This document shows, piece after piece, positions 41,583 through 64,000 of a DNA stretch of 64,000 bases. The position numbers were made by a program, and so were the translations under genes. The notes beneath the pieces were generated by a model. The model searched no databases, had not been told where the DNA came from, and was given only the letters and a program-made list of their open reading frames with translations. The stretch lies in assembly GCA_017548925.1 (NCBI GenBank), contig JAFYYX010000001.1, positions 828,658 through 892,657 on the forward strand, read 5' to 3'. Position 1 is the stretch's first letter, and every line of letters begins with the position of its first letter. Origin of the DNA: Bacilli bacterium. GTDB lineage: Bacteria; Bacillota_I; Bacilli_A; RF39; UBA660.

Positions 41583-43961
41583 TTATTGTTCATCAAAGAA
41601 ATCATCAAAGAATTCATCATCAGATATAATATTATTATCATTAACGATAATGCTATCATTATCAACATTTATCTTAGGTTTATCAACTGCCACCTCAGGT
41701 TCATCATCAAATAATAATTCATCAGGATTAAATTCTTCACGAATAGTTTCAGGTTTTACATTATTAGTTTCTGAAACTTTTTCTTTAAACATAGGTTTAT
41801 CATTTTCAACCTTAGGTTTAATAGTTTCTCTTGGTTGATTATACGCACTAAGTGGTGCATCTAAAATATCATCTTCATCATCAAATAAGAAATCATCAAC
41901 CTTTATATTATTGTTTGAAATACTTGGTTTTTCTTCTTTAACTTCACTAATTTCTTCTTTAATAATATCTTTAGGTGTAGATGAATGTTGTTTTTGTTTT
42001 TCTTTTTCCTTTTGTTCTTCTTCATCAAGTTCTTTTAATTTTTGATCAATATCTTTCATCATTGCATCAATATCAATTGGTTTAGATTGATTAAAAGGAT
42101 TACTTGATTGAGGTCTTGGAGCAAAAGGATTAGAACCTCCAAAAGGACTTCCTCCAAATGGAGAACCACCCATAAAAGGATTTCCTCCCATAAATGGATT
42201 CATAGGAGCTCCACTGTTTCCAGCTTCTTCCATTTGTTTTTTCTTCATTTCTGTAACAAATTCTTTAACATCAAATAATTCAACATTATTTCTTCCTCTA
42301 GTTGGATATTCTGATTCAGGATAAACTTTACCCCAGTCCATTTCAAAATCCGGTACTAACTTAGATTTATAAGGATTACCTCTTTGTCTTATAAGAAGTG
42401 TTTCAAACATTTTCATTTTTTGTAAATCAGTAACTGAAATAAGTGGTCTAGTTGCACTTTTATCTTTTTCTTTAGCTTTAACTTCACCACATAGTTTACT
42501 AATTTCTTCAAGTGCAGTAATTTCAGTACTCATTAAGTATACTAAATTACCACAGTTACCTTTAATTGTATCTCCAACTTCTTTAGTATATACACTATTA
42601 AGTTGTGAGAAGTTTTGAATAATAAATGTAAATCTTATTCTTCTTGAACGAGCAGCTGATACCATTGAATCAACATCTTTAAGTGGTGGCATATTTGCAA
42701 ACTCATCAAGAATAAAGTTTGTTCTATAATTAAGTTTTCCACCATTTTCTTGAGCAACATCAATTAATGTTTCATAACACTGTTTTAAGAAGATAGTAAG
42801 TAGTCCATGATATGTTTTCTTTTCATCATGAATTGTCATGAATACTGCAGTTTTTTCACGACCAATACTTTTCATGTCAAAGTCACTATGAGAAAGCATT
42901 TCTGCTAAACTATCACGTGATGAGAAAATTCTAATTTTTTGTCTAAATGTAGATAAAATAGAACCTTTAGTATCTGTTGGAGCATTGATTGTATTACTTG
43001 CTAAAATATAAGCATTAGAATCTTCACCCTTAGAAGTAAAATAGTCTTGTAAGTATGTTTTAGGTCCAAATCTTTCTTCACCAACTGCACTCATGTAGTT
43101 AACTGAAGAAATATTTACTTCTTTTGGTTTAGCATCCATAAATAAACCGAGTGTTAAACCAGAAAAATAGTCAGCTGCTGAATCTTCCCAGAATGGATCA
43201 GCTTTACTATTTGGATCTTTTAAAATATTAAGTGCAACGTCATCTAGAAGTTCTAGTGCTTTATCTTTATTACCATTATGGAAATAATTATAAGGCATTT
43301 CTAGAGGGTTCCAACAATTACCATGTTCAGGTTCACGGAAGTTAAGTAAAATAATGTTATATCCTTTTTCTTTTAACATTGAACATGTTTGTTTATATAT
43401 TTCACCTTTAGGGTCAGTAATAATCATTGACTCACTATTTCTTGCAAGAAGTCTTACCATAGGTTTAACGATAGTTTCAGTTTTACCAGAACCAGTAGAA
43501 CCAATAATTAAGTTATGGGTTTCACCATTATCAACGTATACTTCTTTACCATTATTAATTAAAGTAATACCAGCTGCGTTAATAGAATCAGCTTTAGGAT
43601 TTACTTTTTCTACATCTTTACCGGTAATAATTTCTTTTTTATCAGCCCATTTAGCATAACCATCTGATTCTTTTTTAGCAAAATTTATTACTTTATCACC
43701 TTTTTTATCTTTACTAAAAATATATGATGATACAGATGTAAATACTAAAACTTCTCCTCCAATAAATAATATTATTGTTACAGGTAGATATGGAGGAATA
43801 AAAGCTTTAAAAGGCATTAAACCATAAAAAGATCCATTACTACCTAATGAAGCAAAATTTAAAACAGCTACACAACATAAATACAAAAGTAATATTGAGT
43901 AGATGACGAATATAATAAAATCTTTTTTCTCTACTTTAAATTTCAAGTTAAACTCCTCCAT
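41583..43961 (-). CDS. Type IV secretion coupling protein (VirD4/TraG/TraD family) with a low-complexity C-terminal tail.
   Basis: Two N-terminal TM helices. Walker A LIIGSTGSGKTE. Walker B NFILDEFANM. The C-terminus has NPFMGGNPFMGGSPFGGSPFGGSNPF repeats and an acidic end. Confidence 0.8.
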   Translation of the reverse strand: MEEFNLKFKVEKKDFIIFVIYSILLLYLCCVAVLNFASLGSNGSFYGLMPFKAFIPPYLPVTIILFIGGEVLVFTSVSSYIFSKDKKGDKVINFAKKESDGYAKWADKKEIITGKDVEKVNPKADSINAAGITLINNGKEVYVDNGETHNLIIGSTGSGKTETIVKPMVRLLARNSESMIITDPKGEIYKQTCSMLKEKGYNIILLNFREPEHGNCWNPLEMPYNYFHNGNKDKALELLDDVALNILKDPNSKADPFWEDSAADYFSGLTLGLFMDAKPKEVNISSVNYMSAVGEERFGPKTYLQDYFTSKGEDSNAYILASNTINAPTDTKGSILSTFRQKIRIFSSRDSLAEMLSHSDFDMKSIGREKTAVFMTIHDEKKTYHGLLTIFLKQCYETLIDVAQENGGKLNYRTNFILDEFANMPPLKDVDSMVSAARSRRIRFTFIIQNFSQLNSVYTKEVGDTIKGNCGNLVYLMSTEITALEEISKLCGEVKAKEKDKSATRPLISVTDLQKMKMFETLLIRQRGNPYKSKLVPDFEMDWGKVYPESEYPTRGRNNVELFDVKEFVTEMKKKQMEEAGNSGAPMNPFMGGNPFMGGSPFGGSPFGGSNPFAPRPQSSNPFNQSKPIDIDAMMKDIDQKLKELDEEEQKEKEKQKQHSSTPKDIIKEEISEVKEEKPSISNNNIKVDDFLFDDEDDILDAPLSAYNQPRETIKPKVENDKPMFKEKVSETNNVKPETIREEFNPDELLFDDEPEVAVDKPKINVDNDSIIVNDNNIISDDEFFDDFFDEQ

Positions 43962-43987
43962 TTATATTTTTAAATATCATATAAAGA

Positions 43988-44833
43988 TTATTTTTTAATC
44001 TTTATATTGTTTTTAAATGTCCTAAAAATAATTATACCAAATATTAAACCAAAAAACAAAGCATATAGTACATAAAGTACTACTTTAGATTGTTTCTCAG
44101 TTAAACCTTTATCACTAGTATTTTTATTCTTGTTTTTTTCACTACCATTATCTGGAACGCTCGATTTACCATTATCTGGATCTGTGTTAGAATTTGGATC
44201 ATTATTATCAGGAACAATAACATCATCAGGTTGTTGAATAATATTTTCATCAGGATTAAAGTATCTTTCATCAGCAAATGAAATACTAATTTCTCGGTTC
44301 TGATTCTTTCTTGTTATAATCCATGTATAAATATTACCACTATTTGAATCCGCATTTGAATTCAATACTTTTTTTGAAACTTTAACATTGATGGTTAATT
44401 TTGTAAGCCCTGGATATTCGTTAAAAACATTAGAAAAATCGTTTGCGTAAATTTTTGAATATGCATTTTCATCTTTAGCATCGATAACAACAAATTCATT
44501 AACAGATCTATAAGCAATATTACTATCTTGATAATCTTCTCCAAATCTATATGAATAAATTAATTTATCAGTTAAAAGTGTATTATACTTTTTATAAACA
44601 ATATTGTCATTTTCAATTTCAGTTCCAACATCACCTGTAATATCCTCAAAAGTGTCGTCATTATAATATGCTTTGTATGGATAACTACCCATTTGAATTT
44701 CAGAAAATTCATCACTATCAGTAGTAGTAATAACTGTACTCTCGAAAAAATCATTATCAACATCAATAGTATATGTGGCTTCACAACCAGATATAATAAA
44801 AATAGCAATTAACAAAAATAATATTCTTTTCAC
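43988..44833 (-). CDS. Lipoprotein with a C-terminal TM anchor. Conjugation/T4SS accessory candidate.
   Basis: Lipobox IISGCEA. Asp/Asn-rich ectodomain. A C-terminal helix VVLYVLYALFFGLIFGIIIF followed by basic residues. Confidence 0.5.
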   Translation of the reverse strand: MKRILFLLIAIFIISGCEATYTIDVDNDFFESTVITTTDSDEFSEIQMGSYPYKAYYNDDTFEDITGDVGTEIENDNIVYKKYNTLLTDKLIYSYRFGEDYQDSNIAYRSVNEFVVIDAKDENAYSKIYANDFSNVFNEYPGLTKLTINVKVSKKVLNSNADSNSGNIYTWIITRKNQNREISISFADERYFNPDENIIQQPDDVIVPDNNDPNSNTDPDNGKSSVPDNGSEKNKNKNTSDKGLTEKQSKVVLYVLYALFFGLIFGIIIFRTFKNNIKIKK

Positions 44834-44838: not shown

Positions 44839-46941
44839 TTAACCCTTTCTTCCACTATTAAATGCTGAAATATACTTCTTTTTGCTGATACCTTTATGTT
44901 TATAATAATAACTCATATCAACAACATAATAGTTTTCTTTTTTAAGACTGGATAATTTAGAAAATTTTATTTGAGCATCTGCAGCACGTCCACTAAACTC
45001 AGCAACATAATATCCTTCATTTCCACCTTTTTTAGCATGTTTAAGAATTAACATAACATGTCCTGAATGCCATAAAACGTCACCTGGTTTTCCTATATGA
45101 GGATTAGATGCTTTAACAGAATACTTTTTAACATTCATATATTTAACTTGAGTTTGTGTCATGTTTACTCCACCATTTTTAAATACCCATGGTAAGAAGG
45201 TACCACAATCAAGTCCTTTATGATAATAACAACCATAACCATTTACACATTTCTTATAAGGAGTACCCCAATCTGGATGAGCCCCGTATGTATACATGCC
45301 TGTGGTCCCACCATACATATATGGAATTCTAACCCCATATGAACCGATTTTTTCAATGGTATACATAGCAGCAGTTACTACACCACACCTTGTTCCAGGG
45401 CCGGCTTTTGCAACAGCATCTCTAAGTCCATTATTAAACTCTTTAATTGAAGTTCCTTTTGAATTTAAAAGAGATTTTAATGATTTAGTAAACTCTTTTG
45501 CACTACTTGGAGTTACTTTTGGATTTATAGTACAACCACCACTATCTGGAGTTGAAGGTTCATCAGTTGCATAATTATTAGGATATAAAGAAATAATAGT
45601 ATTACTACTATAAAAATATTTAAGTAATTTCTCAGCATCATATTCTTTTTCAATAGCTAAATAGTATGCACCCCACTGACTCATTCCTCTACCATGAGCA
45701 GATTGTTTTCTCCAGTGGTCAATACTATAAGCTGAATACTTTTTTAAAAAGTCGAATGAAACTTCTACACTCTTTTGACATACAACAAAAGAATCATCCG
45801 TTTCCTTTCCACCACACGAAGATTTATGGGTAATATTATCCCATTCTATCCCTGCAAATTTTGGATTCGATGTTGAACCATTAACAAGGATAATTCCTGA
45901 CGTTTCATCAGCAGCTTGTTGATAAACACTATTTTTACTAACAGATGAACTAAATCCTAAATTATTATCGCTTGTATAATATCCATCTTTTTTATAATTT
46001 GATTGACTTACTGCCCAAAGAATTCTTGATCTAGAAGCAACAGCTCTTGCTTTTAGATACTCCATTGACTTAGTTAAATCTTTATCTTCGTGGTATAATA
46101 CAGCAGCTGTTGCTTCATCCAAAGTCCACTCATGAATAATTCCATCTTTAGTTTTAACCTTAACATTTTCACTAAAATCCATTTTCACATATGGGAATCG
46201 ATCTTGAAATCCAACATTAGATTTTGAAGAATTAATTAAAAGAACTACAAAAATAACTAGAATAATAACTAAAGTTACAATACCAACAACCATCCAAAAA
46301 TATGGGTTTTTAATTAGTGTTAATAACCATGATTTAGCAGCTTTTTCAGATCCAGCCTTAACTGCTGCTGTTTCAGCAGTTTTTTTAGCGCCTTCTGATG
46401 CAGCTTTTTTTGCGCCTTCAGAAGCAATTTTTTTACCGGCAGTTTCTTCAGTTTTTTTTGCAATCTCTGTCTTAGCACTATCTTCTAAAGATTTTTCCGC
46501 ATTTAACTTTTTATTTGGATTATTATATTGATTTTTTTTAAGATTATTAGGTTGAATAGATTCATTATTAAAGTTAGATTGTTCTTTTTTTAATCTATTA
46601 TTAATATTATCATATTCATTAGAACCAACTGAACTCGTACTTGAATCATGTTGATCATATTGATTAATTGGTGTAATAGAGTTGTCATCTTCAGATTCAT
46701 CAATTGAATCATCATTAAAATATTCAGGATTATTATCCATTTGGTTTCGAATAGATACTAATTTATCATATAAATCACTGTTACCTGATGGTGAATAAGA
46801 ATAATTACTTAATCCTACTTGTGATGCAATCGAAGCTAAAACTTCATATTCCAAATCTGAATTAGGAATTTCAATTCCTAGTTCACTTGCAAGAGATATA
46901 ATTTCATTAGTAAGTTTCATACCATCACCACTATTCAACAT
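44839..46941 (-). CDS. Bifunctional cell-wall hydrolase with a SpoIID/LytB-like domain and an NlpC/P60 peptidase domain (VirB1/CwlT analog).
   Basis: An N-terminal acidic/Lys-rich region, then the TM helix FWMVVGIVTLVIILVIFVVLLI. The SpoIID-like motif HGRGMSQWGAYYLA. C-terminal NlpC/P60 Cys and His contexts (GLDCGTF, WHSGHVMLI). The true start may be Met8 at 46920, which has a GGTGA RBS. Confidence 0.7.
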   Translation of the reverse strand: MLNSGDGMKLTNEIISLASELGIEIPNSDLEYEVLASIASQVGLSNYSYSPSGNSDLYDKLVSIRNQMDNNPEYFNDDSIDESEDDNSITPINQYDQHDSSTSSVGSNEYDNINNRLKKEQSNFNNESIQPNNLKKNQYNNPNKKLNAEKSLEDSAKTEIAKKTEETAGKKIASEGAKKAASEGAKKTAETAAVKAGSEKAAKSWLLTLIKNPYFWMVVGIVTLVIILVIFVVLLINSSKSNVGFQDRFPYVKMDFSENVKVKTKDGIIHEWTLDEATAAVLYHEDKDLTKSMEYLKARAVASRSRILWAVSQSNYKKDGYYTSDNNLGFSSSVSKNSVYQQAADETSGIILVNGSTSNPKFAGIEWDNITHKSSCGGKETDDSFVVCQKSVEVSFDFLKKYSAYSIDHWRKQSAHGRGMSQWGAYYLAIEKEYDAEKLLKYFYSSNTIISLYPNNYATDEPSTPDSGGCTINPKVTPSSAKEFTKSLKSLLNSKGTSIKEFNNGLRDAVAKAGPGTRCGVVTAAMYTIEKIGSYGVRIPYMYGGTTGMYTYGAHPDWGTPYKKCVNGYGCYYHKGLDCGTFLPWVFKNGGVNMTQTQVKYMNVKKYSVKASNPHIGKPGDVLWHSGHVMLILKHAKKGGNEGYYVAEFSGRAADAQIKFSKLSSLKKENYYVVDMSYYYKHKGISKKKYISAFNSGRKG

Positions 46942-46984: not shown

Positions 46985-47018
46985 TTTAATATAAAAAAGG
47001 AGGATTATAATCCTCCTC
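46985..47018 (-). terminator. Intrinsic terminator overlapping the virB4 stop codon.
   Basis: A GC-rich 7 bp stem, aggagga/tcctcct, with loop ttataa, followed on the minus strand by UUUUU(A)UAUUAAAAAAA. Confidence 0.5.
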
Positions 47019-48789
47019 CAGAACCAAATGAATCAAGTTCTTCAGCAGTAGCTACAACATTTATTCTTAAACGTTTAGAACCACATACAAATAAACCTTC
47101 ACCTTGGTTATAGAACTTAATACCTTCTTTTTCGCTTTCATTTAAATCTATTAATAAAGCAAGATCATCAACAGCTTGTTTTTTAAGTCCCATAATTAAA
47201 TAATATGAGGCATTATCAAATATTGCTTTACCATGCATAATCATGTTAGGTGCAGCAAAGTCTGTTGGTTGTTGTGTAATAATAATTGTACCAGTATTAT
47301 ATTTTCTAGATCTTCTTTGAATTTGCGCTAAGAATTCAGCACCAAGTTCATTATGACTAGAAAGTAGTACATGAGCTTCATCAACATATAGAATTGTATT
47401 AATTGATTTATCAAGTGTTAATCCCCAAGCGTACTTAAGTACGTTGAAGAATAATGCATTTTTGATATTTTCATCACTATTAATAATTTCTTTAATATTA
47501 AATACAATAAAATCTGATTGAATATTAAGTGATGTATGACCTGTAAAGTAATATCTAAGTTCTTTAACAAGTGGTCTAATTCTTAGTTCAAGTCTTTCCA
47601 TAACATCTCTTTCATGAGTTTGATCAGTCATTGAAAGAAGTCTACCTTTAATAGTTGCATAAACATCATCAAATGTAGGATAATCTTCTGACTTAAATTG
47701 TGTAAAATCAGAATCAAAATCTATTTTATAACGTTTATAAGTATCTTGAACTACTTCACTAAACATTGCAAGAACATCTTCTTCAATGTTTGGTACATAG
47801 TATTTCATAAATGCTTTTAACTCTTGAAGAGTTCTAGTTAAGATTGTGTAACCTAAACCATCAGCAATATCTTCTTCATCAGCATCAACAACAACTTCAA
47901 GTGGGTTAATCATACCAAATTGTCCACCCTTACCTAAACTTACGAAGTCTCCACCAAAATTTTTGGCCATTTCTTCAAGTTCACCTTCAGGATCGATACA
48001 AACAACTTTACAACCATTTCTTAAATGAGTTCTAACTAATAATTTAGCAGAAGTTGATTTTCCTGAACCTGATGTACCAAGCATAATCATGTTAGCATTA
48101 TTTCTATTATGTTCTTTTTTAATTTGATATAAAAACTGATTAAATAATATAACTCCACCTGAGAAATCAGCTCCAAATAAGCATGAATCTCCAGGATCTT
48201 TAACACTATCGAATACAAATGGATACATTGCTGCAATTGTTGGAGAAGGAATTGGAATACCAACCCTTTCCTCGATATCTTGTTTAGGGAAAATAGGAAT
48301 TATTGATTTTAACACTTTTTCTTGTTCAAACATTAGAGAAACCGCTCTCATGCCCATAGCATCAAGATAGCCTCTTACTTGCATTTTTTTCATTTCCAAA
48401 TCTTCTTTACTATCAGCAGTTATCATTAGATGAAGTTGAAAATCAAAGTTTCTTGATTGAGTAGATGCAAGCATTGATACAAAATCTTGTAACGATTCAA
48501 TGTCTAGACGATATCTTTCACGAAGAGTATTATCCCTTTCATTTTGATATCTCAACTTTAAATCTGCAATTTCTTTATTAATCATTTTTTGCATTACGGA
48601 AAATTGAATAGGAATATGTTTAATAACGGCTTTAACGCCATTAACAGAGGTAATGTCTGATAAAAAACCTACACCAATAATATTAGGGTATGATACAACT
48701 GTCATTATTGTACAGAACTTATTTCCAATTGAAAACTCAGTTGGTCTAAAATTTAAACCTTTAGGTGCAATTTCATTTTTCAATTTCAT
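47005..48789 (-). CDS. VirB4/TrbE/CagE-family conjugative ATPase.
   Basis: Walker A MIMLGTSGSGKST. Walker B ILYVDEAHVLL. Overall DUF87/AAA_10 architecture. 594 aa. Confidence 0.85.
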   Translation of the reverse strand: MKLKNEIAPKGLNFRPTEFSIGNKFCTIMTVVSYPNIIGVGFLSDITSVNGVKAVIKHIPIQFSVMQKMINKEIADLKLRYQNERDNTLRERYRLDIESLQDFVSMLASTQSRNFDFQLHLMITADSKEDLEMKKMQVRGYLDAMGMRAVSLMFEQEKVLKSIIPIFPKQDIEERVGIPIPSPTIAAMYPFVFDSVKDPGDSCLFGADFSGGVILFNQFLYQIKKEHNRNNANMIMLGTSGSGKSTSAKLLVRTHLRNGCKVVCIDPEGELEEMAKNFGGDFVSLGKGGQFGMINPLEVVVDADEEDIADGLGYTILTRTLQELKAFMKYYVPNIEEDVLAMFSEVVQDTYKRYKIDFDSDFTQFKSEDYPTFDDVYATIKGRLLSMTDQTHERDVMERLELRIRPLVKELRYYFTGHTSLNIQSDFIVFNIKEIINSDENIKNALFFNVLKYAWGLTLDKSINTILYVDEAHVLLSSHNELGAEFLAQIQRRSRKYNTGTIIITQQPTDFAAPNMIMHGKAIFDNASYYLIMGLKKQAVDDLALLIDLNESEKEGIKFYNQGEGLFVCGSKRLRINVVATAEELDSFGSGGGL

Positions 48790-49394
48790 TATGCCATCAC
48801 CGTCCCAAAAGTTGTAGTTACTCCCCCATTTAGGAAGTTATCTAAAATCATTCTTAAATCATCGTTTGTTACTTGTGAGGAATTAAGAGAAGAACTTGCT
48901 AAACCGCTTATTATATTATGAAGTTTCTTTTGAAGAATCTCCATTTTCTTTTCTTTAAACAAAATAAAATACTCTGTATCAACAACATTATATTCTACAC
49001 CCATAAATTGATTAGCTTTACTTATATCTTGCATAATCATTTTTCTTGTATATTGATCATGGGATTTATTATACATAATTTGTAAATTAGCTAAATAAGC
49101 GTTTATATCAACGGGTCTATCAGCAACTATAAGCCAAAATTCAAAATCAACAGAATTATAAAAATTTCTTAAGTTATAAACGATAGAATCCTGCTGACCT
49201 TTTTCCAACATAAATATATTTTTTGGGTACACTTTTACACCTGTAACAAAATAACCATCATCTGTAGTAATAATACCATTAGCAATTTGCTTAACAGGTA
49301 ACCAATCATTAGTAAATTGAATATTAATTTTCTTCTTCACTAGTAGCACACCAACCTTTCCAACAATACATTCTACTTTTTGTATAATAATCAT
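48789..49394 (-). CDS. Hypothetical protein translationally coupled to virB4.
   Basis: 201 aa. Its stop overlaps the virB4 start as TAATG. It may supply the N-terminal module that the short VirB4 lacks. Its own start is uncertain because it overlaps the upstream ORF by 71 nt. Confidence 0.5.
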   Translation of the reverse strand: MIIIQKVECIVGKVGVLLVKKKINIQFTNDWLPVKQIANGIITTDDGYFVTGVKVYPKNIFMLEKGQQDSIVYNLRNFYNSVDFEFWLIVADRPVDINAYLANLQIMYNKSHDQYTRKMIMQDISKANQFMGVEYNVVDTEYFILFKEKKMEILQKKLHNIISGLASSSLNSSQVTNDDLRMILDNFLNGGVTTTFGTVMA

Positions 49395-49641
49395 AAAAAT
49401 TTGTTAATAACTGCATTACATTATGATAGTGAGGAACTGGTAATACTAGTAGGGCTGAAATAAGTCCAGGCAGTATTACCAATATTAAAAGTTTAATAGT
49501 AGATGTCTGTACTAAAAACAAAAGTATTAATGTAAATGCAACGCCCATTAAGAATACTACTAAATCAACAGCTGTAAAATATCCAAGTATTAACATTGAT
49601 TTTTTAGAGTTTGCAGGTATTAAATATTGATTTTCTTCCAC
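49324..49641 (-). CDS. VirB3-like small membrane protein.
   Basis: 105 aa with two adjacent TM helices (LILGYFTAVDLVVFLMGVAFTLILLFL and LLILVILPGLISALLVL). It sits immediately upstream of virB4, as ConD/Orf17-type proteins do. Confidence 0.55.
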   Translation of the reverse strand: MEENQYLIPANSKKSMLILGYFTAVDLVVFLMGVAFTLILLFLVQTSTIKLLILVILPGLISALLVLPVPHYHNVMQLLTNFYDYYTKSRMYCWKGWCATSEEEN

Positions 49642-55126: not shown

Positions 55127-55366
55127 CTAAAAAGTGCTTTGCATATGTTGAATTAATGCATCAATTACCTTTTCATTTTTTTCATACTCAATAAGTTCAA
55201 GAGTATCAATTCCATCATCAGTATTTATTACTTTAAAAAAATATAATGTATCGTCAGTATCATCATCTGATGAAGCTGCGAAATATTTTACACCTTCATA
55301 AGTAACAGAATCAACAAGATTAAAACTTAATCCATTTTCTAAAGTTACATTTTGACCTTTTTTCAT
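55127..55366 (-). CDS. DUF1292 (UPF0473)-family small acidic protein.
   Basis: 79 aa. NVTLENGLSFNLVDSVTYEGVKYFAA...DDTLYFFKV...DDGIDTLELIEYEKNEKVIDAL fits the DUF1292 pattern. Confidence 0.55.
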   Translation of the reverse strand: MKKGQNVTLENGLSFNLVDSVTYEGVKYFAASSDDDTDDTLYFFKVINTDDGIDTLELIEYEKNEKVIDALIQHMQSTF

Positions 55367-57384: not shown

Positions 57385-57483
57385 AAGTAATCACAATCCC
57401 TTACTATGTATTAATTATATAAATAAAAATAAATAATGTAAAGATTAAGAGTGTAAAATTTTAAATAAAAAAATGATTAAATT

Positions 57484-57801
57484 CTATTTAATCATTCTTT
57501 CTCTTTCATTAATAGTTTCTTTGGGTAAAGATTTAACTTGATTAACTAATTCTTCAGATAATTCTTTCATATTAGTATCATCTCTTTTAATTAATCTTTC
57601 AATAATATCCAATTCTTTTTTTAAAGCATTATATTTGTCATCTAGTGTAAATATGTATTTTCTATACGGAAAAGAAGATGGAACGCTATTTGAAGATATA
57701 TTAGAAATCCTAATTAAATATGAAATAGTATTAGTTGCAAGATCTAAATTAGATTTATTTGGTAAATATAATCCATCTGCAGGATATTTAAATTTTGTCA
57801 T
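57484..57801 (-). CDS. Small helical protein (105 aa). T7SS-associated candidate.
   Basis: I re-called the start at the internal Met, which has a perfect AGGAGG RBS 9 nt upstream. The track ORF began at 57867 and overlapped the upstream gene by 80 nt. The C-terminal half is helical and Lys/Glu-rich. Confidence 0.5.
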   Translation of the reverse strand: MTKFKYPADGLYLPNKSNLDLATNTISYLIRISNISSNSVPSSFPYRKYIFTLDDKYNALKKELDIIERLIKRDDTNMKELSEELVNQVKSLPKETINERERMIK

Positions 57802-58105
57802 TATAAGTAGCCTCCTGCTCTTTTTTTGCTTGTTTAAGTAAATGATTAGATATTTCAGCAGAATCATTCGTTAATTTTATTGGTATATTTCTTAGTAGAT
57901 TACCAAATTTAATATATTTTTTCTTTTCAAGCGCAACATGATTAAAATAGTAATTAGCTTGGTTACCTATCCACTCTTTAGTTATATTAGGTACTTGATC
58001 TAATCTTTTAAAAAATGCATTTATTAAATCAGTATATTCATCTGCATATTTTATTAAATCTTTACTGATTTCTTCAACTCTAACAGTATCAAAATTAGAT
58101 ATCAT
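57788..58105 (-). CDS. WXG100-like small protein (105 aa).
   Basis: The central motif is TKEWIGNQANYYF (W-x-G at residues about 44-46). The size and helical character match WXG100/Esx-like proteins. Confidence 0.5.
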   Translation of the reverse strand: MISNFDTVRVEEISKDLIKYADEYTDLINAFFKRLDQVPNITKEWIGNQANYYFNHVALEKKKYIKFGNLLRNIPIKLTNDSAEISNHLLKQAKKEQEATYNDKI

Positions 58106-58514
58106 AATCGTTCACCTCTGAATACACACTAAATTGATCGCCACTATTTTTAGTTACAATAGTTTTTGTGGCGTTTTTAGCTTTAGTAACAGTCTTCTTA
58201 GCTGACGCTGCAGCGGTTTCTTCAGCTGCCTTAATTTTATTAATTTGATCATTACAGTATTTAATTTCCTTATCAATGGCAGGTATAATAGTCTTAAACA
58301 AATAACTTCTAATATTATTAATATTAAGTGAAATAGTATATAAACGCTTTGATAATGCAGTTTCATCATTATTAACAAGGTAATTTGAAGAAACATTATT
58401 TTTTATTTTACCAGTATATCCTTTAAAGTCAGCCAACTTACTTACCATACTCACAATTTTACTTCTTAGAGCTTGATAATTCTTTTTCTCTTCTTGAAGA
58501 TCATAAATTGTCAC
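58095..58514 (-). CDS. Small helical protein (139 aa). T7SS-associated candidate.
   Basis: Its ORF overlaps both neighbours by 14-20 nt, suggesting a translationally coupled series. Predicted coiled coil. Lys/Ala-rich C-terminus. Confidence 0.5.
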   Translation of the reverse strand: MTIYDLQEEKKNYQALRSKIVSMVSKLADFKGYTGKIKNNVSSNYLVNNDETALSKRLYTISLNINNIRSYLFKTIIPAIDKEIKYCNDQINKIKAAEETAAASAKKTVTKAKNATKTIVTKNSGDQFSVYSEVNDYDI

Positions 58515-58872
58515 TATGATTCAACTCCTCTACATAATCATTTAACTTTTTAGTAATTAAATTGAAATCATCACTTTTTTGTGCAAAAACATTAGCCATA
58601 GTTGTGGCGCCTTCATGCATTTTTCGATTTAATGCAGTTAAATCGTTAGCATAACTAATAACATTATTCTTTACTGTATAAAACTTAGGCCTTAAATAAG
58701 TATTATAATAAGCATTAATCTCATCATATGGTTTACCTTGATAAACAGATTTTAACTCCGAAAATCTATCATCATATTTATTTAGAATAATATTTACCTT
58801 ATCTGCCATATTAATTATTTCTACGATTAAATGGGCTAAATCTTTTTCGTTAATACCACCTACAACGTCCAT
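58501..58872 (-). CDS. Small helical protein (123 aa). T7SS-associated candidate.
   Basis: ORF with an AGGTGAT RBS. Helical, with no TM segment. Confidence 0.5.
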   Translation of the reverse strand: MDVVGGINEKDLAHLIVEIINMADKVNIILNKYDDRFSELKSVYQGKPYDEINAYYNTYLRPKFYTVKNNVISYANDLTALNRKMHEGATTMANVFAQKSDDFNLITKKLNDYVEELNHSDNL

Positions 58873-58998: not shown

Positions 58999-59502
58999 TT
59001 AATGTTGACCTGAATCAATAGATACAGGGCCAGAATTATCATCAATTCGAATTTGTTTAGCAGCATCTCTTAATGATTTAGCATCATCTTGAACAAGCCC
59101 TGAAATATCTGATGAAGCCGCACGATATTTTTCTTTAATAGCGGCAAGTTCTTTCTTTTCATCAATCAAAACAGAAACGTAAGCAGTCATTATATCTTTT
59201 ACTGCTTTTAAGAATATTTGTGCAGCCTCAAGTGCTGGACCTTTTAATCCCTTTTCAAGAATAATATCAGCATTAAAACCATTAATAGTATCCTGAGCTT
59301 TTGTTATGTATGTATTTATACTAGAAATAAGGCTATCAACGCCTGGTTCACTTATACCAGTAAAACTTGTTTCAGGAGCTTTCGCAAACTCATCAAAATA
59401 AGACGTAGCTAAGTTTTCAAGTGTCATTTTAGCGCCACGTAAATTAGCACCAATAGTAACGCCCCACTTGTCTTCCGAATAATTTTCAAAAGAAATTCCC
59501 AT
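58999..59502 (-). CDS. Hypothetical helical protein (167 aa), translationally coupled to the WXG100 gene.
   Basis: Its start overlaps the upstream gene's stop. It contains KWGVTIGAN and alpha-helical Ala/Lys-rich segments. Confidence 0.5.
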   Translation of the reverse strand: MGISFENYSEDKWGVTIGANLRGAKMTLENLATSYFDEFAKAPETSFTGISEPGVDSLISSINTYITKAQDTINGFNADIILEKGLKGPALEAAQIFLKAVKDIMTAYVSVLIDEKKELAAIKEKYRAASSDISGLVQDDAKSLRDAAKQIRIDDNSGPVSIDSGQH

Positions 59503-59831
59503 TATAAATCATCTCCACTTCTATCACTAACGATTGTTGCATCAACGGTATCCATATCCTCAATAATTTGATTAACACAGTCTTTAAAAACCATAAAAGC
59601 TTGATCTAATCCATAACTAACTTTACGTCTATCGTCTTGAATATTTTTAACAAATTGATCAGCAGAAGCACCAACCCAAACATCTTTGATAGATCTTTCT
59701 ATTCCATCAGCACCCTCAAGTAAAACTTGTTGTGCTGCACCTATAACTTCAGAATTAATTTGGCCTATAGCATTCTTCATACCCTCAACATCATATCCTA
59801 TTGTTGAATTATCAATAGATAACATATACAT
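59502..59831 (-). CDS. WXG100-family (EsxA-like) protein.
   Basis: 109 aa. The central motif DVWVGASADQF is W-x-G followed by an A..F helix turn, as in EsxA (WEGQAFSRF). RBS AAAAGGAGGAT. First gene after the intergenic gap downstream of the YukD-like gene. Confidence 0.6.
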   Translation of the reverse strand: MYMLSIDNSTIGYDVEGMKNAIGQINSEVIGAAQQVLLEGADGIERSIKDVWVGASADQFVKNIQDDRRKVSYGLDQAFMVFKDCVNQIIEDMDTVDATIVSDRSGDDL

Positions 59832-59952
59832 CCTCCTTTTTGTGTACCAGCAAGTACGCTTTTACTTTACAATCATTGTAATTCAAATAAATCTATAAAT
59901 AAACCAGAATTCCAAAAATTAACACTAATTTTACACAAAAAAGAGCCTATAT

Positions 59953-60204
59953 TTATATATATATAAGCTCAGTTCCGTTTTTAATATCAGTATTTCTAAG
60001 AAGAGTTCTTGGATCATAAGAAACTCCGGTATCAGCGTTAAATAAAATTCCATTATTTTTAATTGGATACACTTTAGATAAATCATTTATAATTTTAGAA
60101 AGTTTATAACATATATCGCCTACATATTTATTTATAGGTAAATATATTTCATATTTTTCTTCAATTTCAGGAACAAGTAATGTTACTAATACTTTATATT
60201 CCAT
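59953..60204 (-). CDS. esaB: YukD/EsaB-like ubiquitin-fold T7SS protein.
   Basis: 83 aa. MEYKVLVTLLVPEIEEKYEIYLPINKYVGDICYKLSKI...GTELIYI gives a beta-grasp pattern like YukD. Its start overlaps the essC stop. Confidence 0.7.
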   Translation of the reverse strand: MEYKVLVTLLVPEIEEKYEIYLPINKYVGDICYKLSKIINDLSKVYPIKNNGILFNADTGVSYDPRTLLRNTDIKNGTELIYI

Positions 60205-63200
60205 TACTCATCACCATCCCTTACAACTTTAATAACATTATAAACCCCATCATTAATCTCATATCCAATTCCATCAAATCTTAGTTTTTTATCCTCTTGA
60301 GACATAATATTAGTAGATAAGATGCTTTGTGAATCTAAACCATTTCCAACCCAAATACCATTAGATAAATCAATTTGATCAAACCATGTTTCAGGTTTTA
60401 GATTCTTAATATCATTATAGTCATCAGCTAATATATATATTGTTTTATGACTGTTAATAATATTATTAAACATATTATTGAATATTAATTGTCCTGCTTC
60501 AGATAAAACTTTCTTATATGAGCCAGCCCCTACAACAATGTTAACGGCCCAGTCTTGAGCTTCATTTCTTGTTAAAACATCATTTTCTAACGCAGCAACC
60601 ATTACATTCAAGTTTTCATTAAACATTCTAACATCAATAATCAATTTATTAAATATTTTATTAAAATCAATAACTCTAGTTTTAACATTTGGTATATTGG
60701 AAAGAATTGATGTTAATCCATAAATGAATTCCATATTTTCTTTCAGATCATTACAAGTAATAACATGTATTTTTTGCGATAGTAAATTGTATTTAGCAAC
60801 ATCCTTTTTATAATAATTAAATCCAATTGGAATATCTTCAAGTCCTTGACAGTATTTTATTAAATCAGAACTTGTAATCTCTTCAGGTAATTTTACGAGT
60901 TGCTTTACTTTATATTTATAAAAATCTACACATTTATCAGCATAAGACCTTAATAAATCAAGTTCTTTATCTTGCCTATAAATAAATGCAGTTTGAAATT
61001 CACAATAAGAATCATTATCAAGCGAATTTGTCTTACAAATACCCCTACCTAATGTCTTCTTAGGAATAAGCTCTCTTCTACAATTTGTTATAGCTCTATA
61101 CTGTGAATCGTCAGACATGTTAAGTAAAATAAGATGATTAAAGAATTGTAATTGTCTTTGCCTAATAGCACTTTGTGAACCAGTAATAATAAATATAATT
61201 CCATATTTTGCAGAATCTCTAAATAAATTATTCATAAGATCAGTTATTCTAGAAAAAGACTCCATAAATACATCATAATTATTAATAACAATTGAAATTA
61301 AAGGCAGTTTGGTTTCATTGACTCTATTATAATATTCATATGAACCATTAAAATCAGATAATAGATTCTTCCTATCTTCTAGCTCGTTAATAATCATTTC
61401 TAAAATACCAGTTACAGTGTCAGTATCTTCTTGAAAAGCGACTTCACCAACATGAGGAAATTTACTAAATTTTTTCATAGTTTCAGCGCCAAAGTCGATT
61501 ATATAGAATGCTATTTCCCTTGGATTATGTTCAGATATTGACGAAAAAATTATAGTTGATAAAAGTTCATCTATTCCAGAATTATTTTGGCCCATTATAA
61601 CTATATTACCATCTTTAAGGTTTAAATATAACGGACCTTGTTCTTGTTTTCTAGGTTCATCATATTCACCAACAATTATATTAAAATCATACGGTTTTGC
61701 CTTTTGATGGTTATACTTTTGAATAAGATCACTTAATAACATATAATCTTGAATATTTTCAAGCCATAGTGGTCTATTCTTAAGAGCCAATTGCTTTGAA
61801 GAATTAGATACATAAGAAACAACGTTAATTAATTCTTCCCCAAATTCTCCGCTTATATTTTCGACCTTTTCTTTATAAGAACCAATTACCCTACCAATAT
61901 TATCAATATATTCAATTGAATCATCAATATCATGCTTAATAATATTTGAAGGATGATATTTAGCGCCAGACCATGCTGACTGCCCAAGAGTAAATAAATC
62001 ATCAGTACCAACTTGAAGATAATAAGAACCTATCTGTTTTAAATATGCAGCATCTGGTTTTCGAATAACTTCATTAGAATCACTTTTTTCTTGTACTTTA
62101 AAACACACTTTAAATCTTGAATTTGACCATATTTGATCATTAACTACTCCAGATGGTTTTTGTGTTGCAAGAATTAAATGAATACCTAAACTACGTCCTA
62201 TACGTGATGTAGATATTAGCTGATCCATAAACTCAGGTTGTTGAGATTTTAATTCAGCAAACTCATCGCATATAATTAATAAATGACTTAAAGGTTCATC
62301 AAGCATACCTTTTCTATAGTATTCCTGATACTTATAGATATTCATTGAACCTTCTTTTAGTTTTTCACGAGCCTCATTAAACATTTGTTGACGTCTCTTT
62401 AATTCAGACTCGATTGCAGCAATTGATCTATATATTTCTGACTTATCTAAGTTTGTTATCTTACCTGCTATATGAGGAAGTTTGACACCGAGTTCGCTGT
62501 TTTCAAAACTCATTGCAAGTCCTCCACCTTTGTAGTCAATAATTACAAATTGAACTTCTTCAGGGCTAAAGTTAACAGCTAAAGATAATATTAAAGTTAC
62601 AAGCCACTCAGATTTTCCTGATCCAGTAGTACCAGCAACTAGACCATGTGGCCCATATGCTTTTTCGTGAATATTCATTTTAAAAATTTCACCATTTTGA
62701 TCAATACCTACGGGTACTGCTAGGGATAAAACCGGATTATTATTTTGCCATCTTGATAAACAATTTAATTGTTCTACCCTACCAACATTATATGTTTCTA
62801 GAAAAGTTAAAGATGACGGTAAATCATACTTCGCTTTTTCCACTTGAACTGGAATATTAGAAATATTACGGCAGGATTCGTAAATATTAAAATTACTATT
62901 ATCCAAATCTGCTTTAAATATTTGTTGATTATCATTAATATTACTAGTTAGTATAGCAGAATCAGTATCACCTATACTAATAAAATTAGAAGCTTCACTT
63001 GGAAGAAGAGATATACTCTCAGATGTCAAAATTATTGAGAATCCCATGTTCTTCTTATATCTTAAGATTTTATTTATTAAAGATACATTTCTAACTGATG
63101 ACATATCATCAATAAATAATACATAATAAGGTTTAAAATCCTGATATCTTTTTCTATTATTTCGATCAGAACCATTATCTTCTAAAATTTCTTGTTCGTC

Positions 63201-64000
63201 ATTAGCAACTCTAGCATCAAATATTTTTTCTAAATCTAATGAGATTGTTGATAAGTCTTCTATTGTGTTCGCGTAATATCTTATTGTTTTATGATTATCC
63301 CAGCAATGAGGAATCATCTTTAAATAACTCCATTTTTCTGGCTCTTTCGTGAAAACAACAAACTTTAGATCTGTATATGAATGAAAAGTAATCATTTGAA
63401 GGAAAACATTATCCATAAATTTTTTTACTAAATCATCACTTCCAACAATCGCACTTATATTACTATCTGTAAAGTTATAAGAAATTGGGACATTCTCTAA
63501 AACAAGAGAGGATTTAACTATTTCCTTCATCTTAGTTAAAAGACTATCTTCTTCATCAATAGAAAACTTATCTACAGGAACGTTTATTTGAAGCAAAGTT
63601 TTACGATTACCAAGACCAACTCTGATTGATAAAAAATCATCATGATCAATATTTCTTTGCCACAATTCTTTCTTTTTATTTAAAATAATATTTGAACAAT
63701 CGGCAGCAGACGGATAGTTTTCGCATATAGTATCTTTTTGTCTATTTTTTAAATCATTTATTTCATTTGATTTTTTATCAAGATATGCACTATATTTTTC
63801 TACACGCTTATTTTCGCGAAGTCTTAATCTTTTTTTGTTTAATTTTCTTGTAATGGTTGGCCATAAAATAGCTCCTAATATCATCGAAACTGACATAGAA
63901 ATAGATACTAATAATCTCAGAAAACTACCTTGTCCAGACATATACATAGATACATAGCTTAAGAAGGAAAGCAATGACGTAGCAACCATGGTAACTTGTG
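60204..64000 (-). CDS. essC: EssC/YukB-like T7SS FtsK/SpoIIIE ATPase. Partial: the reading frame stays open to the window edge.
   Basis: The D1 block [36 protein letters not shown]...[10 protein letters not shown], Walker B [11 protein letters not shown] and an ILATQKP motif match the EssC D1 signature. Two further degenerate P-loop regions follow ([13 protein letters not shown] and others). N-terminal TM helices. There is no in-frame stop between 63989 and 64000. Confidence 0.8.
   Translation of the reverse strand, partial: [1264 protein letters not shown]

What the first reader, a model, noticed from the sequence alone, without database searches (positions are those of the whole stretch)
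41583..64000. Single co-directional 22-gene array fusing a T7SSb core (EssC, YukD, WXG100-like) with a conjugative T4SS set (VirB2/3/4/6-like, hydrolase, VirD4)
From 64000 down to 41583 every gene is on the minus strand. The genes overlap or are separated by short gaps, with only two visible intrinsic terminators. The upstream third encodes unmistakable T7SSb components: an EssC-type multi-FtsK ATPase with a canonical D1 signature, a YukD/EsaB ubiquitin-like protein, and WXG100-like and other small helical proteins. The downstream two thirds encode a Firmicutes-type (MPF-FA-like) conjugation apparatus. It comprises a VirB2-like two-TM protein, VirB6-like, VirB3-like and VirB4 proteins, a SpoIID-like plus NlpC/P60 wall hydrolase, and a VirD4 coupling protein. 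I know of no described system in which an EssC/WXG100 module and a VirB4/VirD4 mating-pair-formation module form one locus. No relaxase is visible. One speculative explanation is that an EssC-type FtsK ATPase, like Streptomyces TraB, or a T7SS export step substitutes for part of the canonical relaxosome or export machinery. Alternatively the module may deliver effector proteins through the conjugative channel. Either would be new biology.
Basis: partly seen in the sequence, partly recalled or inferred. Interest (0 to 1): 0.9.

Follow-up and report, generated by a model that had tools for sequence, protein, structure and literature searches.

The report
Adjacent but separable T7SS and T4SS
A small-genome, uncultured gut Bacilli bacterium carries a stripped-down type VII secretion module directly upstream of a chromosomally fixed, relaxase-less type IV secretion system with pilin-like genes. 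The two are separate transcription units that also occur apart in relatives, so this is not one fused machine.

Summary
The component calls are largely right. EssC passes the NCBIfam EssC equivalog cutoff, but the window edge cuts it (true length 1528 aa). The 83-aa protein models confidently as a ubiquitin-like fold whose best PDB match is the EccD Ubl domain. Six small helical genes form a conserved WXG100-clan cassette. Downstream lie three VirB2-like pilin paralogs, VirB6, a VirB3-like gene, a split VirB4, a hydrolase and VirD4.

The "single fused conjugative array" reading is not supported, for these reasons:
- The locus is chromosomal and sits between housekeeping genes. No relaxase or integrase was found.
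- The closest syntenic relative (VirB4 94%, RmuC 93% identical) has the whole T4SS at the same site but no EssC module.
- The same EssC module occurs alone among housekeeping genes elsewhere.
- A hairpin plus T-run terminator, kept by compensatory changes, ends the T7 module.
- A promoter-like stretch conserved even in the EssC-less relative starts the T4SS module.

The T4SS most resembles the relaxase-less, pilin-bearing chromosomal T4SS of Patescibacteria, but here it is in a Bacillota lineage. The T7 module lacks EssA, EssB and EsaA.

Adjacency nevertheless recurs with a second EssC type, and beside pilin genes in a Saccharibacteria-labelled genome, so cooperation remains possible.

The parts
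60204..64000 (-). EssC-type triple FtsK/SpoIIIE ATPase. Only the C-terminal 1264 codons are in the window; the full protein is 1528 aa.
   Evidence: TIGR03928 876.9 bits for the fragment and 895.7 bits for full-length P0001, covering residues 224-1522. P0001 is 100% identical and 1528 aa long. Walker A GTTGSGKS at residue 720 and a TM region at about 270-310.
59953..60204 (-). YukD/EsaB-like ubiquitin-fold protein (83 aa). Its start overlaps the essC stop.
   Evidence: AF2 model from a 41-sequence alignment has pLDDT 95.5. The best Foldseek PDB hit is 7npt_D8, an ESX-5 complex chain that I take to be the EccD ubiquitin-like domain (TM 0.77); ubiquitin folds follow. No Pfam YukD hit. Always found directly after EssC in relatives.
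59943..59970 (-). Terminator-like hairpin plus T-run just after the YukD-like gene.
59502..59831 (-). WXG100-like protein (109 aa), cassette family B.
   Evidence: W52-x-G54 and F60 are invariant in the alignment of homologues. The family profile weakly hits EsxA structures 3zbh, 2vs0 and 2vrz in register (E 0.02-0.06). Pfam WXG100 hits 13 of 44 small proteins from these cassettes, best E 8e-5.
58999..59502 (-). Cassette family C helical protein (167 aa).
   Evidence: Conserved in L013, L016, L018, L019 and L020. No Pfam hit.
58501..58872 (-). Cassette family A helical protein (123 aa).
   Evidence: Weak NCBIfam hit to a 'type VII secretion system-associated protein'. Conserved in all EssC-module loci.
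58095..58514 (-). Cassette family D helical protein (139 aa).
   Evidence: Homologues in L012, L016, L018 and L019.
57788..58105 (-). Cassette family E (105 aa), a second WXG-type protein with the motif 'EWIGNQA..YF'.
   Evidence: Sequence. Homologues in L012, L013, L016, L018, L019 and L020.
57484..57801 (-). Cassette family F (105 aa), the last gene of the T7 module.
   Evidence: Called as 105 aa in the source contig. Homologues in L012, L013, L016, L019 and L020; a family-F-like gene is also visible by eye in the L018 translations.
57466..57496 (-). AT-rich hairpin (AATGATTAAAT-AGA-ATTTAATCATT) plus T-run, overlapping the stop codon of the last T7 gene. Read as an intrinsic terminator.
   Evidence: Folds in both the window and L016, where the stem is kept by compensatory changes (AATGATTATTT / AAATAATCATT). 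An equivalent hairpin plus T-run follows the cassette in L013.
57414..57442 (-). Promoter-like site TTTACA-17-TATAAT for the T4SS module.
   Evidence: Joint top score in the 20-kb scan, 11 of 12. The surrounding ~60 nt down to the RBS are conserved in L016 and in the EssC-less L010, where they follow Peptidase_S11 directly.
55366..57384 (-). 672-aa acidic soluble protein of unknown function, the first gene of the T4SS module.
   Evidence: A homologue (32% identity) is retained with the T4SS in the EssC-less L010. No family hit.
55127..55366 (-). DUF1292 protein (79 aa).
   Evidence: Pfam 24.1 bits against a cutoff of 24. 57-61% identical in L010, L016 and L019.
54651..55034 (-). VirB2-like two-TM pilin (127 aa).
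   Evidence: PF18895 T4SS_pilin 28.1 bits against a cutoff of 26.6. Two TM segments.
54616..54642 (-). Terminator-like hairpin after the pilin gene.
53193..54557 (-). 454-aa protein: N-terminal signal/TM, a large external domain, and a C-terminal pilin-like two-TM domain.
   Evidence: The C-terminus aligns to the pilin genes of relatives. TM map.
51975..53171 (-). 398-aa protein with the same architecture, a third pilin-domain paralogue.
49660..51945 (-). VirB6/TrbL-like polytopic membrane protein (761 aa).
   Evidence: About 7 TM segments. Homologues carry PF19597 or PF04610. NCBIfam MMCAP2_0566 conjugal transfer family 5.6e-10, below cutoff.
49324..49641 (-). VirB3-like small membrane protein (105 aa).
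   Evidence: Weak TcpE (E 0.028) and PrgI (E 0.055) hits. Its position before VirB4 is conserved.
48789..49394 (-). 201-aa TraC-like protein that corresponds to the N-terminal domain of VirB4 (split VirB4).
   Evidence: Aligns to positions 100-276 of the VirB4_plasma model. Homologues hit PF26593 TraC-like.
47005..48789 (-). VirB4 ATPase (594 aa).
   Evidence: AAA_10 and P-loop_TraG. VirB4_plasma 8e-101, 338 bits, below the 590 cutoff. 94% identical in L010, 88% in L008 and 67-79% in L005, L007 and L017.
46996..47019 (-). Terminator-like hairpin at the end of VirB4.
44839..46941 (-). 700-aa membrane-anchored cell-wall hydrolase (SpoIID-like plus NlpC/P60-like).
   Evidence: Weak Pfam hits. SpoIID_LytB 1.4e-8. 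Homologues have SpoIID hits on record.
43988..44833 (-). 281-aa bitopic protein or possible lipoprotein of unknown role. VirB8-like by position only, which is an inference.
   Evidence: TM map. Weak lipobox hit. Conserved position in relatives.
41583..43961 (-). VirD4-type coupling protein (792 aa).
   Evidence: T4SS-DNA_transf 1.3e-53. conju_CD1115 303.8 bits against a cutoff of 250. 85% identical in L010 and 74% in L008.

Best explanation
Two autonomous envelope-secretion modules lie side by side at a fixed chromosomal site in a reduced-genome, walled, uncultured Bacilli lineage from animal guts.

Module 1 (about 57484 to beyond 64000) is a minimal T7SS variant. It comprises a full-length EssC, a YukD-like ubiquitin-fold protein and a conserved six-gene cassette of small helical WXG100-clan proteins. 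It has its own promoter region and terminator. I infer that EssC exports the small helical proteins.

Module 2 (41583-57442) is a domesticated, relaxase-less T4SS of the monoderm (MPF-FATA-like) kind. It has its own conserved promoter, three VirB2-like pilin-domain paralogues, VirB6, a VirB3-like protein, a split VirB4, a wall hydrolase and VirD4. Its ATPases evolve as slowly as housekeeping genes, while its exposed parts diverge fast. I infer a vertically inherited cell-contact apparatus for protein or DNA delivery or uptake, used on neighbouring cells, rather than a self-transmissible element.

Shown: module boundaries, separability, synteny and component identities. Inferred: substrates, direction of transport, and whether the two modules cooperate.
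For: Chromosomal and fixed:
- The flanks are housekeeping genes on both sides.
- The same flanks (Peptidase_S11 upstream; rhodanese, VTT and RmuC downstream) surround the T4SS in L008, L010 and L021. Rhodanese also follows it in L017.
- RNase P class B and peptidoglycan genes point to a walled Bacillota organism.
- There is no DNA match to plasmids or phages.

Separability:
- L010/L011 carry the T4SS including the g09 and DUF1292 homologues, with no EssC, YukD or cassette genes. VirB4 is 94%, VirD4 85% and RmuC 93% identical.
- L017 and L005 have the T4SS without EssC.
- L020 and L018 have EssC, YukD and the cassette with no T4SS nearby. L013 shows the same, but only about 3.8 kb downstream of EssC is available.

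Transcription units:
- A hairpin plus T-run with compensatory changes ends the T7 module.
- A joint top-scoring promoter-like site with conserved flanks follows, and is also present in the EssC-less L010.

No co-evolution visible: L008 keeps VirB4 at 88% identity, but the available C-terminal part of its EssC is only 27% identical and its downstream genes differ.

Selection pattern against L010: VirB4 94%, VirD4 85% and pilin 77%, against VirB6 43%, hydrolase 35% and g19 34%.

Component identities.
Against: Adjacency is not random.
- The EssC module sits immediately upstream of the T4SS in the window, L016 and L019.
- A different EssC type occupies the same place in L008, L004 and L021.
- In the GC-43% genome labelled Saccharibacteria (L012), the same EssC module sits between four T4SS_pilin genes and a polytopic protein with a weak VirB6-like match.
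- The window's module lacks the single-pass membrane protein that precedes EssC in L013, L018, L019 and L020. It may therefore depend on something else.
- Terminators can be leaky, so read-through co-transcription is not excluded.
- The sample is small: about a dozen loci, many on short contigs.
Confidence: 0.62

Rival explanations
1. Functionally coupled T7/T4 hybrid. The EssC module and the T4SS form one apparatus. EssC might feed WXG-like proteins or DNA into the T4SS channel or pilus, or the T7 substrates might build or prime the contact structure.
For: - Adjacency recurs with two EssC types and in a second phylum-level background.
- The window's module lacks the membrane partner seen in L013, L018, L019 and L020, and lacks EssA, EssB and EsaA.
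- Precedent: mycobacterial plasmids need both T7SS and T4SS for conjugation, and the two gene sets co-evolve there (PMC5381665; PMC12857230).
- The pIP501 T4SS protein TraF has an EssB-like fold (title of PMC13037476).
Against: - Each module exists without the other in close relatives.
- There is a terminator and a separate conserved promoter at the junction.
- EssC and VirB4 divergence is incongruent in L008.
- In L007 housekeeping genes (a HerA-like ATPase, and proteins I read from their sequences as Dus- and MurC-like) separate EssC from the T4SS.
Confidence: 0.15
2. An integrated conjugative element, for example a Mycoplasma-ICE-like element that does not need a relaxase, carrying a T7SS as cargo.
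For: - The best NCBIfam matches of the pilin, VirB6 and VirB4 are to Mycoplasma ICE families.
- VirD4 passes the CD1115 conjugal-transfer model.
- A full VirB4 plus VirD4 set is present.
Against: - No relaxase, integrase or DDE transposase was found among the array ORFs or the flanking ORFs scanned.
- The chromosomal site is identical across relatives whose exposed T4SS proteins have diverged to 30-45% identity.
- The VirB4_plasma score is below its cutoff, 338 against 590.
- GC content is about the same as the surroundings.
- There are no plasmid or phage DNA matches.
Confidence: 0.08
3. Chance juxtaposition in a gene-dense 1-Mb genome, with one or both modules decaying.
For: - The window's T7 module lacks the upstream membrane protein found in relatives.
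- The T7 module is absent in the nearest relative.
Against: - All ORFs are intact.
- EssC is 73-77% conserved over its full length in L016 and L019.
- VirB4 and VirD4 are under strong constraint.
- Adjacency recurs in different backgrounds.
Confidence: 0.1

Closest known systems
Chromosomal T4SS of Patescibacteria/Saccharibacteria (Southlakia epibionticum SEML1_0006-0019; Wang 2023, PMC10633639; Quinonero-Coronel 2025, PMC12102498)
   Same: - Monoderm-type (MPF-FATA-like) component set.
- Chromosomal, with no relaxase.
- Several divergent VirB2-like pilin genes inside the cluster.
- Host has a small genome.
- The ATPases are conserved.
   Different: - The host here is a Bacillota/Bacilli lineage (RNase P class B), not Patescibacteria.
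- A VirD4 coupling protein is present here, whereas it was reported as not recognizable in Southlakia.
- Two of the three pilin domains here are fused to large external domains.
- Placement of this VirB4 in the Patescibacteria VirB4 clade was not tested.
- No EssC is mentioned in either paper.
T7SSb (Ess/Yuk) and the variants T7SSc-j (Garrett, Higginson and Palmer 2024, PMC11217815)
   Same: - An EssC/TsxC ATPase with an N-terminal extension, a YukD-like TsxB and WXG100-type TsxA proteins.
- Some variants are equally simple (T7SSg).
- T7SSg and T7SSh lie next to another envelope machine, the Tad pilus, and those authors leave the relation open.
   Different: - No EssA, EssB or EsaA, and no kinase, phosphatase or EspG-like component at the locus.
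- A fixed six-gene small-protein cassette is present. In relatives there is also a 414-498 aa single-pass membrane protein that matches no described component by Pfam or NCBIfam.
- The neighbour here is a T4SS, not a Tad pilus.
Mycobacterial pRAW-type conjugative plasmids with ESX (T7SSa) plus T4SS genes (Ummels 2014, as cited in PMC12857230; Mortimer 2017, PMC5381665)
   Same: A T7SS ATPase with WXG100 genes and VirB4 / VirD4-like genes sit on one replicon. The two are functionally linked in conjugation and have congruent trees.
   Different: - Those are in Actinobacteria, use T7SSa, are plasmid-borne and are truly conjugative.
- Here the locus is chromosomal, the host is a Bacillota lineage, the EssC is T7SSb-like, no mobility genes were found, and the divergence of the two modules is incongruent.
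Mycoplasma integrative conjugative elements (Mbov_0396, Mbov_0397 and MMCAP2_0566 families)
   Same: These are the best NCBIfam matches for the pilin-like TM protein, VirB6 and VirB4, and they come from a relaxase-less system.
   Different: - The scores are below the family cutoffs.
- No DDE transposase was found.
- The chromosomal site is fixed.
- VirB4 is split into two genes.

Membership tests
T7SSb (Ess/Yuk type) | EssC: membrane ATPase with three FtsK/SpoIIIE domains | tested here: met
   TIGR03928 equivalog scores 895.7 bits against a cutoff of 778.4 on full-length P0001, and 876.9 bits on the window fragment.
T7SSb (Ess/Yuk type) | EsaB/YukD ubiquitin-like protein | tested here: met
   The model has pLDDT 95.5. 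The best Foldseek hit is an ESX-5 complex chain that I take to be the EccD ubiquitin-like domain; ubiquitin folds follow. The match is in fold only, with no Pfam YukD hit.
T7SSb (Ess/Yuk type) | EsxA-type WXG100 protein | tested here: met
   W-x-G and F are invariant. Pfam WXG100 hits 13 of 44 cassette proteins. There are weak in-register hits to EsxA structures. The window's own copy gave no Pfam hit at E 0.01.
T7SSb (Ess/Yuk type) | EssB/YukC pseudokinase membrane protein | tested here: not met
   No Pfam or NCBIfam hit in any ORF of the array, and none among the called genes within about 10 kb upstream of EssC. A copy elsewhere in the genome cannot be excluded.
T7SSb (Ess/Yuk type) | EsaA/YueB polytopic protein and EssA | tested here: not met
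   No such hit or topology in the T7 half, where none of the small proteins has a TM segment. A copy elsewhere in the genome was not testable.
Conjugative T4SS of monoderms (ICE or plasmid, MPF-FATA) | VirB4 ATPase | tested here: met
   AAA_10 and P-loop_TraG; VirB4_plasma 8e-101 and conju_CD1110 7.6e-53.
Conjugative T4SS of monoderms (ICE or plasmid, MPF-FATA) | Type IV coupling protein | tested here: met
   conju_CD1115 scores 303.8 bits against a cutoff of 250.
Conjugative T4SS of monoderms (ICE or plasmid, MPF-FATA) | Relaxase next to or within the element | tested here: not met
   No relaxase family appears in the Pfam scans of the array, of 30 further ORFs across the window, or among the called genes within about 10 kb upstream of EssC. 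Small ORFs were not all scanned.
Conjugative T4SS of monoderms (ICE or plasmid, MPF-FATA) | Integrase or recombinase and evidence of mobility | tested here: not met
   No recombinase was found. The flanks are the same in diverged relatives. There are no plasmid or phage DNA matches.
Patescibacteria-type chromosomal T4SS | Chromosomal, relaxase-less, monoderm-type components | tested here: met
Patescibacteria-type chromosomal T4SS | Array of divergent VirB2-like pilins in the cluster | tested here: met
   There are three pilin-domain genes, g11 to g13. Relatives have two to four.
Patescibacteria-type chromosomal T4SS | VirB4 falls in the Patescibacteria VirB4 clade and the host is a Patescibacteria member | tested here: not met
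   The host marker RNase P class B indicates Bacillota, and related MAGs are titled Erysipelotrichaceae, Tenericutes, Bacilli or Mycoplasma. A VirB4 phylogeny was not run.
Patescibacteria-type chromosomal T4SS | Required for growth on a host cell | not testable with these tools
   Needs cultivation and genetics.
Mycoplasma ICE | Mbov_0397-type VirB4 at equivalog level, plus a DDE transposase | tested here: not met
   The score is 338 bits against a cutoff of 590. No transposase was found in the array.

The most novel reading that the evidence does not exclude
A reduced-genome Bacilli lineage (and, by transfer, some rumen Saccharibacteria) uses a minimal EssC-YukD-WXG module together with a pilin-bearing, relaxase-less T4SS as one contact-dependent apparatus for living on other cells. 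On this reading the EssC module relies on T4SS membrane or pilus parts in genomes, like this one, that lack its usual membrane partner. That would be a functional T7/T4 partnership in Bacillota, and a second, independent case of a T4SS domesticated for an epibiont-like lifestyle.
Probability: 0.15. Interest if true: 0.85.

Novelty: new variant of a known kind. Interest (0 to 1): 0.5.

Why it matters
A 2025 review states that VirB2-type pilins are not found among T4SSs of Gram-positive bacteria, with the Patescibacteria T4SS as the one recently identified exception (PMC12857230).

This locus shows the same design in a Bacillota lineage: chromosomal, no relaxase, several divergent pilin-domain genes, and ATPases conserved like housekeeping genes. 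The organism has a genome of roughly 1 Mb and also carries large type IV pilin-like proteins. That hints that domesticating a conjugation machine for cell-to-cell dependence may have happened more than once, or may have spread between phyla.

The T7 module adds another minimal arrangement to the growing list of T7SS variants: EssC, YukD and a fixed six-gene cassette, without EssA, EssB or EsaA. Its repeated placement beside T4SS or pilin genes is a concrete, testable lead on whether the two secretion systems cooperate.

It does not, as it stands, show a hybrid machine or a new conjugation mechanism.

Tried and rejected
- Megablast of the 22-kb region against plasmids and phages found nothing. 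An exact look-up of the 1261-aa ORF also failed, because the ORF is truncated by the window.
- Scans of genome contigs and metagenome contigs with a VirB6 alignment returned only 4 and 2 loci, so no large statistical survey was possible. The first alignment was too divergent to be searched.
- The single-sequence AF2 model of the YukD-like protein was useless, with pLDDT 49.
- A profile of the YukD-like family did not find YukD in the PDB by sequence. Only the fold comparison worked.
- I first suspected that the small genes after EssC might be the VirB2-like pilin array described for Patescibacteria. I rejected this because they have no TM segments and carry W-x-G motifs.
- I looked for EssB- or EsaA-like proteins among the neighbours of stand-alone EssC loci and found no family hits. 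This did reveal a conserved single-pass membrane protein.
- I considered that L005 might hide a divergent EssC upstream. It does not: those ORFs are a tRNA synthetase, a sigma factor and DNA polymerase I.
- GC content does not separate the two halves. Only the g09 region dips, to about 23-25%.

Full report
**What is in the sequence**

The window has about 27% G+C. It carries a class B RNase P RNA, tRNA clusters, PBP1, alanine racemase, DnaD, RNase Y and Der. It is therefore a chromosomal segment of a walled Bacillota organism.

The ATPase ORF at 60204-63989 is 100% identical to a 1528-aa protein named 'type VII secretion protein EssC [Bacilli bacterium]'. That protein is found on contigs of up to 1.04 Mb, so the window edge cuts the gene. 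Related MAG contigs are titled uncultured Erysipelotrichaceae, Tenericutes, Bacilli and Mycoplasma sp..

From EssC to VirD4 there are 20 minus-strand genes. The same strand continues into rhodanese, a VTT/DedA protein and RmuC. About nine tenths of all genes in the window are on that strand. Co-directionality by itself therefore says little.

**Component check, T7 half**

- The full-length EssC scores 895.7 bits on the NCBIfam EssC equivalog against a cutoff of 778.4, covering residues 224-1522. An extra 223-residue N-terminus sits where T7SSb EssC proteins carry FHA domains, but its fold was not tested.
- The 83-aa gene that overlaps the essC stop has no Pfam hit. With an alignment of 41 homologues it models at pLDDT 95.5. 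Its best PDB match is an ESX-5 complex chain that I take to be the EccD ubiquitin-like domain, followed by ubiquitin-like folds.
- The next six genes have no TM segments. They recur as a fixed set of six families (A to F) in every related EssC locus.
- Family B has an invariant W-x-G followed by F, and its profile weakly hits EsxA structures in register. Family E carries a second W-x-G-type motif.
- Across 44 such proteins, Pfam WXG100 is the commonest hit (13 members, best E 8e-5). YwqH-like, DUF5344 and LXG hits also occur.
- No EssA, EssB or EsaA is present in the array or upstream of it, where the source contig shows Peptidase_S11, DAP_DH_C, an AAA protein and RNase J.

**Component check, T4 half**

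- T4SS_pilin passes Pfam's cutoff for the 127-aa two-TM protein.
- The C-termini of the 454-aa and 398-aa proteins are homologous to that pilin. This gives three pilin-domain genes.
- The 761-aa polytopic protein is VirB6/TrbL-like.
- The 105-aa protein has weak TcpE and PrgI hits.
- The 201-aa 'TraC-like' protein aligns to the N-terminal part of a VirB4 model, and the 594-aa ATPase aligns to the rest. VirB4 is therefore split, as it is in all relatives.
- The hydrolase calls are weak but consistent.
- VirD4 passes the CD1115-family cutoff.
- The best plasmid matches to VirB4 are only about 28% identical.

**Context and mobility**

No DNA match exists in the plasmid or phage collections. Pfam scans of the array and of 30 further ORFs across the window found no relaxase, integrase or transposase, and the called genes within about 10 kb upstream of EssC show none either. 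'Conjugative' is therefore not supported.

**Comparative evidence**

- L016 (EssC 77% identical) and L019 (73%) repeat the window's architecture.
- L010/L011 is the nearest relative by flanking genes (RmuC 93%, VTT 88%, VirB4 94%, VirD4 85%). It has the whole T4SS at the same site between Peptidase_S11 and rhodanese, starting with the homologue of the 672-aa gene and DUF1292. It has no EssC, YukD or cassette.
- L017 and L005 also have the T4SS without EssC.
- Conversely, L020 has EssC, YukD and six small genes among LexA, HrcA, GrpE and DnaK. L018 has two convergent EssC-YukD pairs around two cassettes. Neither has a T4SS nearby. L013 has the module followed by an amidase, though its contig ends about 3.8 kb after EssC.
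- In L013, L018, L019 and L020, a conserved single-pass membrane protein of 414-498 aa (43-55% identity, no family hit) precedes EssC. The window has no copy.

**Junction**

- The stop codon of the last cassette gene lies in an 11-bp AT-rich hairpin followed by a T-run. In L016 the stem is kept by compensatory changes, and L013 ends its cassette the same way.
- Thirty bases further on lies a joint top-scoring promoter-like site of the 20-kb scan, TTTACA-17-TATAAT.
- About 60 nt around that site, down to the ribosome-binding site, are conserved in L016 and in the EssC-less L010, where they directly follow Peptidase_S11.
- More terminator-like hairpins follow YukD, the pilin gene and VirB4.
- The array is therefore several transcription units, and the T7 module is a clean insertion or deletion upstream of the T4SS promoter.

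**Evolutionary pattern**

Against L010, VirB4 (94%), VirD4 (85%), the VirB4 N-terminal protein (81%) and the pilin (77%) are as conserved as the housekeeping flanks. VirB6 (43%), the hydrolase (35%), g19 (34%), g13 (36%) and g09 (32%) are not. This fits a long-resident, functional apparatus with fast-evolving exposed parts.

In L008/L021 the T4SS is still close (VirB4 88%). The EssC upstream of it, however, is only 27% identical over the available C-terminal part, and it is followed by different genes (218 aa, about 800 aa, and two glycosyltransferases). The two modules therefore do not co-diverge. One caveat applies: only the C-terminus of that EssC could be read.

**What argues for a link**

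Adjacency occurs with two EssC types at the same site. In L012, a 43% G+C contig labelled Candidatus Saccharibacteria, the same EssC-YukD-cassette module (56% identical EssC) lies between four T4SS_pilin genes and a polytopic protein with a weak VirB6-like match. In L007 the EssC is near the T4SS but separated from it by housekeeping genes. With only about a dozen loci I cannot quantify this. Cooperation is possible but unproven.

**Comparison with known systems**

- The T4SS half works like, and is built like, the relaxase-less, pilin-bearing chromosomal T4SS of Patescibacteria. That system is essential for epibiotic growth in Southlakia (PMC10633639, PMC12102498) and is described as the single monoderm exception in having VirB2-like pilins (PMC12857230).
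- This locus is not in that phylum, and it retains a VirD4.
- Its best family matches are Mycoplasma ICE proteins, all below cutoff.
- The T7 half shares EssC, YukD and WXG100 with T7SSb and with the recently described variants T7SSc-j. Some of those are equally simple, and some sit next to Tad pilus loci with an unresolved relation (PMC11217815).
- The six-gene cassette and the single-pass partner are not among the components listed in that paper.
- A T7SS plus T4SS partnership is already known from mycobacterial conjugative plasmids (PMC5381665; Ummels 2014, as cited in PMC12857230). The combination as such is therefore not unprecedented.

**Verdict**

The interpretation as a single fused, conjugative T7/T4 locus is not supported.

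What is there is two separable modules. One is a minimal T7SS variant. The other is a domesticated, pilin-bearing T4SS in a reduced-genome Bacilli lineage.

Each is a new variant of a known kind, and their recurrent neighbourhood is worth a proper survey. Interest is moderate (0.5).

Noticed in passing
window 1806-3071, 6538-7785, 9691-11250 (all minus strand); SLT 8485-9645: Three large proteins (421, 415 and 519 aa) carry a type IV pilin N-terminal methylation motif. Two of them also have an ALK/LTK glycine-rich domain. An SLT transglycosylase lies nearby. Together with the T4SS, this gives the organism a surface toolkit reminiscent of epibiotic Patescibacteria.
   Followed up: no
window 48789-49394 and 47005-48789: VirB4 is split into a 201-aa TraC-like protein (model positions 100-276) and a 594-aa ATPase (positions 294-889). 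The split is conserved in all relatives seen.
   Followed up: partly
window 53193-54557 and 51975-53171: Two proteins join a large N-terminal external domain with no family hit to a C-terminal VirB2-like two-TM pilin domain. Relatives have the same kind of genes, with very divergent external parts.
   Followed up: partly
L012 6434-9783 and 10001-22293 (GCA_017515105.1, labelled Candidatus Saccharibacteria): On a 43% G+C contig, an EssC (56% identical), a YukD-like gene and five recognisable genes of the six-gene cassette (an inverted block of six small genes) sit between four T4SS_pilin genes and a 1151-aa polytopic protein with a weak VirB6-like match. This suggests transfer of the T7 module between Bacilli and Saccharibacteria, and a second T7/T4 neighbourhood.
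   Followed up: partly
L013 8501-9997, L018 1952-3361 (minus), L019 8150-9580, L020 290-1534: A conserved single-pass membrane protein (414-498 aa, TM at about residue 74-92, 43-55% identity, no Pfam or NCBIfam hit) lies next to the 5' end of EssC in relatives. It is absent from the window.
   Followed up: partly
L018 3486-17641: Two convergent EssC genes (39% and 56% identical to the window's EssC), each with a YukD-like gene, enclose twelve small genes, which amounts to two cassettes.
   Followed up: no
window 14014-15774 (minus); L007 2655-4598: A HerA/DUF87 ATPase (586 aa) lies beside RNase Y. Its 39%-identical homologue in L007 lies between the EssC gene and the T4SS.
   Followed up: no
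window 37009-38019 (minus) and upstream of EssC outside the window (L002 8716-9852): Two Peptidase_S11 (D-Ala-D-Ala carboxypeptidase) genes bracket the secretion region at some distance. Whether they are recent paralogues was not checked.
   Followed up: no
window 25495-26271 (plus): An MvaI/BcnI-family restriction endonuclease lies next to a cluster of tRNA genes.
   Followed up: no
L005 and L007, downstream of VirB4: In these more distant relatives, tblastn found no VirD4 or hydrolase homologue after VirB4. In L007 one ORF scanned there is an ABC transporter. The coupling protein therefore seems not to be a constant part of this T4SS family.
   Followed up: no
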